A program made the position numbers and the translations under genes. Below, one piece after another: positions 45,413 to 45,673 of a DNA stretch of 47,728 bases. Each line of letters opens with the position of its first letter. Position 1 is the stretch's first letter. Below the pieces are notes generated by a model. That model saw only the letters and a program-made list of their open reading frames with translations. It did not search any database and had not been told where the DNA came from. Source of the stretch: Escherichia coli (GTDB lineage Bacteria; Pseudomonadota; Gammaproteobacteria; Enterobacterales; Enterobacteriaceae); the NCBI RefSeq assembly GCF_003334765.1, contig NZ_QOWT01000031.1, one strand, 5' to 3'.

Positions 45413-45673
45413 TTAGGGAAAAATAAGGAAAAAATAATCATCTTCTACATTTGTGTATATTGATATATCCACCGCTACGTGCGGAAAAAAATCTGGGAGC
45501 CATGTAAAAACTCCATCATTTTCTGGTATTGCCATATAGTTTATGTAATGTTTACTTACAAGAGATTCATCTTTGTATAAATAAAGATAAGTAATTACGC
45601 ATAAAACAACAATGATTATAATAGCAAAAATAAATATTATCATCTTTGATATATTACTTGAGATAGCCAGCAT
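45413..45673 (-). CDS. Small membrane protein (86 aa), candidate immunity protein for the orphan Rhs toxin
   Basis: Strongly hydrophobic N-terminal helix; start overlaps the end of the orphan Rhs C-terminal ORF by 20 nt; very AT-rich. Confidence 0.4.

What the first reader, a model, noticed from the sequence alone, without database searches (positions are those of the whole stretch)
45413..45673. Small membrane protein overlapping the orphan Rhs toxin end: candidate immunity protein
An 86-aa ORF with a strongly hydrophobic helix starts 20 nt before the orphan toxin stop, the usual arrangement for cognate immunity genes. It is extremely AT-rich, consistent with horizontally acquired toxin/immunity cassettes.
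Basis: inference. Interest (0 to 1): 0.35.

Follow-up and report, generated by a model that had tools for sequence, protein, structure and literature searches.

The report
Frameshift-truncated ybbD, Rhs immunity gene remnant
The 86-residue membrane-protein ORF is real, but it is the known E. coli gene ybbD cut in half by a one-base loss in a run of T's; the intact 163-residue form is the likely antidote to the neighbouring serum-amyloid-A-like Rhs toxin tip, so this is an ordinary, decaying toxin/immunity cassette.

Summary
The ATG ORF at 45413..45673 (-) encodes 86 aa, overlaps the orphan Rhs stop by 20 nt, has 28% GC and carries a strong N-terminal TM helix.

It is not a native small protein. 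The window is the E. coli rhsD-ybbC-ylbH(rhsH)-ybbD locus, and the ORF is the "head" of ybbD. Other strains encode a 163-aa YbbD. Here one T is missing from a poly-T tract (T6CC at 45434..45429; T8C in intact alleles). The reading frame therefore stops after residue 86, and the otherwise undamaged tail (45427..45183) is left out of frame.

Full-length relatives (about 120-183 aa, TM-anchored or lipoproteins) occur in many genera. In three divergent cases they sit directly behind the same toxin tip. That tip folds like serum amyloid A, a "Lipocone" domain predicted to attack lipid head groups in the periplasm.

The immunity reading is therefore well supported for the family. This copy loses half of a single alpha/beta domain and both conserved cysteines, so it is most likely inactive. 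The truncated allele is in the majority: 45 of 59 sampled E. coli genomes. It also occurs in O157:H7, where the toxin sits on a full-length Rhs.

The gene is already named (K-12 ybbD, NF011297/NF011298, PF26610). Low interest.

The parts
45413..45673 (-). 86-aa ORF, the ybbD 'head': residues 1-82 of YbbD followed by four out-of-frame residues (LIFP) and a stop
   Evidence: NCBIfam NF011297 scores 192.2 bits against a cutoff of 173. NF011298 (the 163-aa form) scores only 176.9 against a cutoff of 326. The sequence is 100% identical to strain HSP425, where it is annotated 'YbbD family protein'.
45578..45661 (-). N-terminal transmembrane signal-anchor helix (residues 5-32)
   Evidence: AlphaFold2 models a helix at residues 5-32 with pLDDT about 95. 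The best 19-residue Kyte-Doolittle mean is 3.37. In homologues this segment is replaced by lipoprotein signal peptides.
45428..45434 (-). Frameshift site: poly-T tract T6 followed by CC, one base shorter than the in-frame T8C allele. On the coding strand it reads T TTT TTC.
   Evidence: Alignment with the intact allele. Adding one T, or shifting by -1, here restores a 163-aa product. The tract is T6CC, T7C, T8C or T9C in different strains.
45183..45427 (-). Out-of-frame tail of ybbD (codons 83-163, stop TAA at 45183..45185). It contains the 65-aa TTG ORF at 45183..45380.
   Evidence: NF011298 positions 99-163 match at E=3.5e-42. There is no further lesion in the window. The tail carries the conserved WCK...LY.IGK...C motifs of the family.
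45654..46364 (-). Orphan Rhs fragment (K-12 ylbH/rhsH): the end of the Rhs core followed by a serum-amyloid-A-like toxin tip at 45657..46082
   Evidence: TIGR03696 Rhs-associated core at E=3.3e-24. Pfam SAA at E=1.3e-3. AlphaFold2 model with pLDDT 91.7. The top 7 Foldseek PDB hits are all SAA1/SAA3, probability 0.97-1.00, target-normalised TM 0.65-0.71.
45654..45673 (-). 20-nt overlap between the toxin 3' end and the ybbD start
   Evidence: The same overlap is annotated in other strains and is present in the 52%-identical relative on L004.
45485..45491 (-). Second poly-T tract inside the head (T7 here)
   Evidence: This tract is T8 in strain OkiPb01707, which gives a 78-aa product.
45258..45265 (-). 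Third poly-T tract, in the tail (T8 here)
   Evidence: This tract is T7 in O157:H7 and strain 118, which is a second frameshift in those lineages.
46364..46732 (-). ybbC, the gene after the main RhsD tip. Context only: it shows the locus is a primary tip plus immunity followed by an orphan tip plus immunity.
   Evidence: Annotated 'YbbC/YhhH family protein' in every strain fetched that carries the rhsD-ybbC module. The O157:H7-type loci lack it.

Best explanation
The ORF is the frameshift-truncated N-terminal half of ybbD, the gene that follows the orphan Rhs toxin tip ylbH/rhsH in the E. coli rhsD locus.

Shown: intact YbbD is a 163-aa protein with an N-terminal membrane anchor and one alpha/beta domain. 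In the window one T is missing from a poly-T tract, so translation ends after 82 native residues plus four foreign ones. The remaining 81 codons are intact but out of frame.

Inferred: the intact protein is the cognate immunity protein of the toxin. The toxin is a serum-amyloid-A-like ('Lipocone') domain predicted to cut lipid-linked head groups at the outer face of the inner membrane. YbbD, tethered there by its TM helix (or, in relatives, by a lipid anchor with an inner-membrane retention signal), would bind and block incoming toxin in the periplasm.

Inferred: the truncated 86-aa product lacks half the fold and both conserved cysteines, so it is probably unstable and non-protective. The locus is H-NS-bound in K-12, and there is probably no selection against losing immunity to an orphan tip that lacks the Rhs delivery body.
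For: Identity of the locus:
- The region is 100% identical to an E. coli chromosome, with gene order rhsD-ybbC-orphan Rhs-YbbD-ylbG-mnmH-allS.

Truncation:
- Strain hubt-sl has a 492-nt, 163-aa gene, and the window differs from it by a 1-nt deletion in the T tract.
- Adding one T restores a 163-aa protein.
- The K-12 allele plus one T encodes exactly the intact protein of strain 2014C-4587.
- The tail shows pN/pS of about 0.2 between the two main haplotypes, so it was coding for most of that history.

Full length is the family norm:
- 16 relatives of 140-183 aa align across residues 10-155. They share the IPxxDGVxTWLPxFFP motif, and nearly all keep the two cysteines, both of which lie in the half missing here.
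- AFDB lists 'YbbD head domain-containing proteins' of roughly 120-180 aa in Hafnia, Salmonella, Rahnella, Delftia, Vibrio and others. The only short ones are E. coli or Shigella fragments plus one human-gut-metagenome fragment.

Structure:
- The model has pLDDT 91.7. The frameshift at residue 82 falls inside strand 80-86 and removes two helices and four strands.

Toxin/immunity pairing:
- The same toxin tip (DQFFHC.AFCRVSK ... DL.VN..G..C) lies immediately upstream of YbbD relatives at 52%, 38% and 31% identity.
- One relative sits inside an Rhs orphan array.

Periplasmic location:
- Three relatives have canonical lipoboxes with Asp at +2.
- The toxin has invariant cysteines.
- Published prediction: immunity proteins to Lipocone toxins are all TM proteins or lipoproteins that act in the periplasm.

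Toxin fold:
- Pfam SAA at E=1.3e-3, best PDB sequence hits are SAA, and the top 7 fold hits are SAA.
- An independent report makes the same observation for the EDL933 RhsD tip.

Silencing:
- H-NS and StpA cover ybbC-rhsH-ybbD in K-12 (PMC9948719).

Mosaic decay:
- The T tract is 6, 7, 8 or 9 long in different strains. Two other T tracts in the gene, and the toxin itself, are frameshifted in various strains.
Against: - No experiment shows that any YbbD neutralises this toxin. The immunity role rests on gene linkage and predicted location.
- The truncated allele is the commoner one: 45 of 59 sampled genomes.
- It is the allele paired with an intact full-length 1398-aa Rhs carrying this tip in O157:H7. 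That would be odd if immunity were needed and the head were useless.
- The head keeps the most conserved motif of the family (WLPxFFP), and Pfam treats the head as a domain (PF26610).
- Some relatives are stand-alone genes with no toxin nearby, which leaves room for a different primary function.
Confidence: 0.72

Rival explanations
1. The 86-aa head (membrane anchor plus the conserved WLPDFFP segment) is itself a sufficient, minimal immunity protein, and the 163-aa form is dispensable.
For: - The head-only allele predominates: 45 of 59 sampled genomes, with clusters seen on at least 1000 contigs.
- O157:H7 keeps an intact full-length Rhs with this tip next to the head-only allele, and its tail carries a second frameshift while the head stays open.
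- The head holds the best-conserved motif.
- NCBIfam has a separate 86-aa equivalog model.
Against: - The cut lies inside a beta-strand of a single compact domain and removes both conserved cysteines.
- No head-only lineage was seen outside the Escherichia/Shigella group; the one other short entry is a human-gut-metagenome fragment 100% identical to the query.
- The head is itself broken in OkiPb01707 and EC93.
- The K-12 allele is a single slipped T away from an existing intact allele, so prevalence may reflect recent, recurrent slippage plus clonal sampling.
- The locus is H-NS-bound in K-12. EHEC delta-hns showed no bactericidal activity according to PMC7216683, so immunity may simply not be required.
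Confidence: 0.12
2. Full-length YbbD is still made from the frameshifted allele, either by -1 ribosomal frameshifting on the in-phase heptamer T TTT TTC or by transcriptional slippage on the T tract. Alternatively, the tract acts as a reversible on/off switch.
For: - The heptamer at 45434..45428 is in the X XXY YYZ phase, and a -1 shift gives a complete 163-aa protein.
- The tail has no other lesion in the window or in K-12.
- Tract lengths of 6 to 9 coexist in the species.
Against: - Any T8-to-T7 deletion in this phase creates such a heptamer automatically, so the heptamer is not independent evidence.
- There is no stimulatory structure downstream (MFE z-score 0.22; 115 of 200 shuffles fold as well).
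- No Shine-Dalgarno-like element was seen upstream by inspection.
- The window's T6 is shorter than the roughly 9-base runs known to give efficient transcriptional slippage in E. coli (my own knowledge).
- Homologues in other genera are single ORFs.
- O157:H7 would need two shifts.
Confidence: 0.06
3. YbbD-family proteins are envelope lipoproteins or anchored proteins with a housekeeping or other role, and their position after Rhs tips is incidental or secondary.
For: - Stand-alone members sit in core-gene neighbourhoods, for example between cysB and acnA, and between a NUDIX gene and an arginase gene.
Against: - Stand-alone 'orphan' immunity genes are a well-known feature of polymorphic toxin systems.
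- In all three short contigs where upstream DNA was available, the same toxin tip precedes the gene, and the two diverge together.
- The 20-nt overlap with the toxin stop is conserved.
Confidence: 0.08
4. It is a chance ORF in AT-rich DNA with no gene behind it.
For: The DNA is AT-rich and the region is H-NS-bound in K-12.
Against: - NF011297 matches at E=1.7e-57.
- Homologues go down to 22-31% identity in many genera and share one fold.
- Only 1.1% of shuffles give an ORF this long.
Confidence: 0.01

Closest known systems
E. coli K-12 ybbD (annotated as a pseudogene, to my knowledge) / YbbD family (NCBIfam NF011297 86-aa form, NF011298 163-aa form; Pfam PF26610 YbbD_head)
   Same: It is the same gene at the same chromosomal position. 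The K-12 86-aa product differs from the window's at one residue (L8I), and it carries the same frameshift class (T7C against T6CC).
   Different: The window carries a rare haplotype, an exact 91-nt match in only 22 of 2327 genomes. In it a T-to-C change shortens the tract to T6. That change is synonymous in the shifted frame and would give S83P in the restored frame.
Orphan toxin/immunity modules downstream of rhs and cdi genes (Poole et al. 2011, PMC3150448; Jackson et al. 2009, 'C-terminal displacement')
   Same: A displaced toxin tip retains a short stretch of Rhs core homology and is followed by its own small gene. The module sits after the primary tip and immunity pair (rhsD-ybbC), has low GC, and the two genes overlap at the stop and start codons.
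   Different: Here the immunity candidate is frameshifted, and function is untested. In other strains the toxin is broken instead, or both are.
TelC-TipC and other Lipocone toxin/immunity pairs (Burroughs, Nicastro & Aravind, bioRxiv 10.1101/2025.01.14.632903)
   Same: The toxin tip is SAA-like, which corresponds to the 'prok-SAA' Lipocone family. The candidate immunity protein is membrane-anchored or a lipoprotein, as that paper predicts for all Lipocone immunity proteins, with action in the periplasm or at the membrane.
   Different: YbbD does not obviously match any of the immunity folds that paper lists (BamE-like, beta-jelly-roll, 4-TM, the four-cysteine alpha+4beta domain, OB, SAS-6-like). 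It has two conserved cysteines and a larger alpha/beta domain. 'ybbD' does not occur in the main text; the supplements were not checked.
EHEC EDL933 RhsD (z0651) and 'RhsDI' (z0654) (Vazquez-Lopez & Navarro-Garcia 2020, PMC7216683)
   Same: That paper models the z0651 C-terminus as similar to human SAA1 (TM 0.623) and proposes the small downstream ORF as its immunity protein. The O157:H7 loci fetched here carry the same tip on a full-length Rhs, followed by the 86-aa ORF.
   Different: That study did not recognise the downstream ORF as a truncated half of a 163-aa gene. I did not verify directly that z0654 is the 86-aa ORF.
Periplasmic T6SS immunity lipoproteins (Tsi1, Tsi3, Tai and Tli classes)
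   Same: They share the logic of a periplasm-facing, membrane-tethered inhibitor against an effector that acts outside the cytoplasm.

Membership tests
YbbD family, 86-aa form (NCBIfam NF011297) | Whole-protein score above the curated cutoff of 173 bits | tested here: met
   192.2 bits, E=1.7e-57, aligned over 1-86 of 86 positions.
YbbD family, full-length form (NCBIfam NF011298, 163 aa) | Whole-protein score above the cutoff of 326 bits, meaning both halves lie in one reading frame | tested here: not met
   The window ORF scores 176.9 bits over profile positions 1-85 only. The tail ORF matches positions 99-163 separately. The intact hubt-sl protein scores 373.4 bits.
YbbD family | Single alpha/beta domain after the anchor, with the conserved WLPxFFP motif and the WCK...C cysteine pair | tested here: not met
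   The motif is present at residues 58-64. Both cysteines and six of the nine secondary-structure elements after the anchor lie beyond the frameshift.
Rhs/polymorphic-toxin cognate immunity gene | Located immediately 3' of the toxin tip, on the same strand, abutting or overlapping it | tested here: met
   20-nt overlap.
Rhs/polymorphic-toxin cognate immunity gene | Linkage to the same toxin type is conserved in divergent relatives | tested here: met
   L004, L005 and L006 all have the same tip upstream of YbbD relatives at 52%, 38% and 31% identity. Toxin and ybbD co-occur in 2716 E. coli genomes.
Rhs/polymorphic-toxin cognate immunity gene | Specifically neutralises its toxin | not testable with these tools
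   This needs co-expression or competition assays. No such experiment turned up in the library searches on ybbD, ylbH and rhsH.
prok-SAA / Lipocone toxin domain (the partner gene) | Helical core with the SAA fold | tested here: met
   AlphaFold2 model with pLDDT 91.7. The top 7 PDB Foldseek hits are SAA1 or SAA3, probability 0.97-1.00, target-normalised TM 0.65-0.71. Pfam SAA at E=1.3e-3.
prok-SAA / Lipocone toxin domain (the partner gene) | sNxxGR motif in helix H4, and the conserved active-site positions | tested here: inconclusive
   An invariant V-N-x-x-G is followed by L or I rather than R. The other catalytic positions could not be mapped because the paper's figure is not held.
Programmed -1 ribosomal frameshift genes (dnaX type) | Slippery heptamer X XXY YYZ in phase | tested here: met
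   T TTT TTC at 45434..45428. However, any one-base loss from the T8 tract in this phase produces such a heptamer.
Programmed -1 ribosomal frameshift genes (dnaX type) | Stimulatory downstream structure, and conservation of the two-frame arrangement in homologues | tested here: not met
   MFE z-score is 0.22. Homologues in other genera are single ORFs.

The most novel reading that the evidence does not exclude
The poly-T tracts make ybbD a slippage-prone, reversible immunity gene. Alternatively, the anchored 86-aa head alone suffices to block a periplasm-acting, lipid-carrier-targeting SAA-like Rhs toxin. Either would explain why the 'broken' allele predominates and why it accompanies an intact full-length Rhs in O157:H7. 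It would also give the first defined immunity mechanism for a bacterial serum-amyloid-A-like toxin.
Probability: 0.1. Interest if true: 0.5.

Novelty: already known. Interest (0 to 1): 0.2.

Why it matters
This matters only modestly. The analysis corrects the reading of a common E. coli annotation: 'YbbD family protein' of 86 aa is half a gene. It also links the YbbD family, by conserved gene order, to serum-amyloid-A-like (Lipocone) Rhs toxin tips, a toxin class with predicted but untested activity on lipid-linked cell-envelope precursors. If someone wants to test that class in E. coli, the natural reagents are here. Intact toxin plus intact YbbD occur together in strains such as O104:H4 C227-11 and hubt-sl, and natural one-base knock-outs occur in K-12 and O157:H7. 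For a genome scan this is an ordinary decaying orphan toxin/immunity cassette in an H-NS-bound island.

Tried and rejected
- A 43-nt exact-allele query, intended to count T8 alleles, returned nothing because the low-complexity filter masks the T tract. I replaced it with 91/92-nt queries and read the allele class from the length of the matched span, then checked nine of those loci directly.
- A profile built from seven toxin tips did not reach significance against PDB sequences (SAA3 at E=1.1). The SAA link rests on the Pfam hit and on fold comparison instead.
- PADLOC returned no hits for YbbD or the toxin.
- Pfam-A as installed does not contain PF26610, so the direct scan of YbbD found nothing. 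The family name came from precomputed annotations.
- Two long repeat proteins in the HMMER list (P0086, P0095) are FN3/Ig-like repeat artefacts, not relatives.
- The programmed-frameshift idea was considered and downgraded, as set out under the rivals.
- Literature searches for ybbD, ylbH and rhsH found no functional study of this pair.

Full report
**What is at the coordinates**

On the minus strand, an ATG ORF runs from 45673 to 45413 and encodes 86 aa. It starts 20 nt before the TAA stop of the upstream 236-aa ORF at 45654..46364, which is an orphan Rhs fragment (TIGR03696 Rhs-associated core, E=3.3e-24). GC is 28% for the ORF against 49% for the window, and GC dips to 25-30% in the local profile. 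Residues 12-30 give a Kyte-Doolittle mean of 3.37. Only 22 of 2000 shuffles of the surrounding 551 nt contain an ATG ORF this long.

**Where the window comes from**

The last 8 kb of the window is the E. coli rhsD locus in reverse orientation: gcl, allR, allA, allS, mnmH (ybbB), the ylbG fragment, then ybbD, the orphan Rhs (ylbH, also called rhsH), ybbC and the 3' end of rhsD. The 1.5 kb around the finding is 100% identical to E. coli HSP425. It is present at 80% coverage or more in 2716 of 5426 complete E. coli genomes. RefSeq annotates the ORF as 'YbbD family protein' or 'hypothetical protein'.

**The ORF is half a gene**

- In strain hubt-sl the same gene is 492 nt and encodes 163 aa.
- The alignment shows that the window lacks one base in a poly-T tract: T6CC at 45434..45429, against T8C in the intact allele.
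- Translation therefore leaves the native frame after residue 82 (...EDDYFF) and stops four codons later.
- Adding one T, or shifting back one base at this site, yields a complete 163-aa protein, and the tail (45427..45183) has no other lesion.
- NCBIfam agrees. The ORF passes the 86-aa model NF011297 (192 bits, cutoff 173) but not the 163-aa model NF011298 (177 bits, cutoff 326). The downstream 65-aa ORF at 45183..45380 matches positions 99-163 of NF011298 at E=3.5e-42.
- The K-12 allele repaired by one T encodes exactly the intact protein of strain 2014C-4587.
- Between the two main haplotypes the tail has pN/pS of about 0.2. These are small counts, but they suggest the tail was coding through most of that divergence and that the slip is recent.

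**Full length is the norm for the family**

An exhaustive HMMER search found 42 cluster representatives. The non-fragment members are 140-183 aa and align over residues 10-155 of YbbD.

The alignment shows three features:
- a hydrophobic N-terminus;
- a strongly conserved IPxxDGVxTWLPxFFP...N.D.N.FY..F.L block;
- in the second half, WCK...LY.IGK...Y...C, with two cysteines conserved in nearly all members.

Both cysteines lie beyond the window's frameshift. AFDB50 lists 'YbbD head domain-containing proteins', mostly about 120-180 aa, in Hafnia, Leminorella, Rahnella, Salmonella, Delftia, Xanthomonas, Vibrio, Photobacterium and others, and several are annotated as lipoproteins. The only short entries are E. 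coli or Shigella fragments plus one human-gut-metagenome fragment identical to the query. Two long repeat proteins in the HMMER list are artefacts.

**Structure**

**Is YbbD an immunity protein?**

There is no experimental evidence in the library. The genomic evidence is good.

- Three divergent relatives (52%, 38% and 31% identity) each sit directly after a gene ending in the same toxin tip, with invariant DQFFHC.AFCRVSK and DL.VN..G..C motifs. In two of these the Rhs PxxxxDPxGL junction is visible.
- Another relative lies in an Rhs orphan array between other tips.
- Two relatives are stand-alone genes among core genes, one of them between cysB and acnA in an enterobacterium. That is compatible with orphan immunity genes but leaves a small opening for another function.

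**The toxin and the likely mechanism**

The tip (45657..46082) gives a weak Pfam hit to serum amyloid A (E=1.3e-3), and its only PDB sequence hits are SAA (E=0.31). Its AlphaFold2 model (pLDDT 91.7) finds SAA1 and SAA3 as its top seven PDB matches (probability 0.97-1.00, target-normalised TM 0.65-0.71, 16-20% identity).

Burroughs, Nicastro and Aravind (bioRxiv 10.1101/2025.01.14.632903) place bacterial SAA-like domains in the 'Lipocone' superfamily. They predict that these cleave or transfer head groups of phospholipids or polyisoprenoid carriers, note their use as polymorphic-toxin tips, and find that all associated immunity proteins are TM proteins or lipoproteins acting in the periplasm.

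This fits what is seen here:
- the tip has several invariant cysteines;
- YbbD has a signal-anchor helix;
- three relatives replace that helix with a canonical lipobox followed by Asp at +2, the classical inner-membrane retention signal (the rule itself is from my own knowledge).

I therefore infer that intact YbbD sits on the periplasmic face of the inner membrane and sequesters incoming toxin there. The SAW-clade sNxxGR motif is present as an invariant VNxxG followed by L or I rather than R. Catalytic competence is untested.

An in-silico study of EDL933 had already noted that the z0651 RhsD C-terminus resembles SAA1, and it proposed the downstream ORF z0654 as 'RhsDI' (PMC7216683).

**Population picture**

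A 91-nt query across the tract hit 2327 genomes, and the window's exact haplotype occurs in only 22 of them. In an evenly spaced sample of 59 full-length hits, 45 have the frameshift-length span, 13 are one base longer and 1 is two bases longer. A second haplotype with T8 is not seeded by the first query, and it is exact in 411 genomes. Among those genomes are hubt-sl, O104:H4 C227-11 and EC93.

Direct inspection of 13 loci confirmed tract lengths of T6CC, T7C, T8C and T9C, and showed lesions elsewhere:

| Strain(s) | Toxin state | ybbD state |
|---|---|---|
| hubt-sl, O104:H4 C227-11 | intact orphan | intact, 163 aa |
| K-12, 160-11H1, window | intact orphan | 86-aa allele |
| NCTC86, 2014C-4587, ET479 | frameshifted | intact, 163 aa |
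| OkiPb01707 | frameshifted | broken; extra T in the head tract at 45491..45485 gives 78 aa |
| RM9245 | frameshifted | broken; T9C gives 89 aa |
| UTAK-13 | frameshifted | 86-aa allele |
| EC93 | broken | broken |
| O157:H7 and strain 118 | tip on an intact 1398-aa Rhs | 86-aa allele, plus a second frameshift from one T lost in the tail tract at 45265..45258 |

Roughly a quarter to a third of carriers may have an intact ybbD. This is an estimate from ranked samples, not a census. H-NS and StpA cover ybbC-rhsH-ybbD in K-12 (PMC9948719). According to PMC7216683, Wan et al. found that EHEC delta-hns shows no bactericidal activity. Both points are consistent with weak selection on the pair.

**Rivals**

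1. *The head alone protects.* In favour are its prevalence and the O157:H7 pairing. Against are the structural cut, the lost cysteines, the absence of head-only lineages outside the Escherichia/Shigella group, and breakage of the head itself in some strains.
2. *Recoding.* The frameshift site T TTT TTC is an in-phase slippery heptamer, and a -1 shift restores the protein. However, this follows automatically from deleting a T from T8. The downstream 80 nt fold no better than shuffles (z=0.22), and homologues are single ORFs.
3. *A non-immunity envelope function.* Stand-alone copies suggest this, but the conserved toxin linkage argues against it.
4. *A chance ORF.* Homology excludes this.

**Verdict**

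The family is very probably the immunity partner of the SAA-like Rhs tip, but the 86-aa ORF is a frameshift-truncated remnant and probably does not protect.
- The gene is already known and named (K-12 ybbD, NF011297/NF011298, PF26610).
- The only mildly new element is the explicit link between the YbbD family and SAA-like/Lipocone toxin tips, together with the description of the hypervariable T tracts.
- Interest is low (0.2).

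Noticed in passing
window 45657..46082 (-): The orphan Rhs toxin tip has the serum amyloid A fold: the top 7 PDB fold hits are SAA1 or SAA3, and Pfam SAA matches at E=1.3e-3. 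This makes it a bacterial 'prok-SAA' Lipocone-type tip present in about half of complete E. coli genomes, with no experimental characterisation found.
   Followed up: partly
L002 and L014 (O157:H7 and strain 118), equivalent to window 45183..46364: In O157:H7-type genomes the same SAA-like tip is the primary tip of an intact 1398-aa Rhs (WP_000014801.1). The downstream ybbD is nevertheless the 86-aa allele with a second frameshift in its tail, so an apparently complete toxin sits next to an apparently broken immunity gene.
   Followed up: partly
L012, L013, L016-L019 and L023, equivalent to window ~45654..46364: The orphan toxin gene carries its own polymorphic frameshifts in many strains: the toxin frame is open for 166 or 191 codons instead of 237. 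In the 13 loci tabulated, intact ybbD went with a broken toxin in 3 of 4 cases; hubt-sl was the exception. O104:H4 C227-11, fetched later, also pairs an intact ybbD with an intact toxin. The sample is too small, and too structured by phylogeny, to interpret.
   Followed up: partly
L008-L010, positions 6001-6480: A stand-alone YbbD-like lipoprotein (P0090, lipobox LCAC with Asp at +2) sits between cysB and acnA in an enterobacterial genome, with no toxin nearby. It is a possible orphan immunity gene fixed in a core neighbourhood.
   Followed up: no
P0091; NCBIfam NF007301 / PRK09781: A second NCBIfam 'hypothetical protein' equivalog of 181 aa is a distant paralogue of YbbD. YbbD matches it at E=1.8e-16, and P0091 scores 275.7 bits against it. 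It has an LTAC lipobox followed by DD. I did not establish which named gene it corresponds to, or its genomic context.
   Followed up: no
window 45496..45514 (-) and 45615..45643 (-): A terminator-like hairpin followed by a T run, and a 10/12 sigma-70-like promoter match, both lie inside the ybbD head coding sequence. The counts are no higher than in shuffles, so these are probably by-products of the AT-rich, T-tract-rich sequence.
   Followed up: no
window 44261..44668 (+) and ~44900..45180: A truncated helix-turn-helix transposase fragment (ylbG) and a further short annotated pseudogene remnant lie between ybbD and mnmH. These look like debris of earlier insertions or displaced Rhs modules at the end of the island. 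GC stays at 34-39% until about 44900.
   Followed up: no
L011, positions 2-905 and 1937-2455: A metagenomic Rhs orphan array carries a HEIGH metallopeptidase-like tip with a 127-aa downstream gene, then a YbbD relative that has no recognisable toxin in the 400 nt before it, then another orphan tip. It illustrates an immunity gene kept after its toxin was lost.
   Followed up: no
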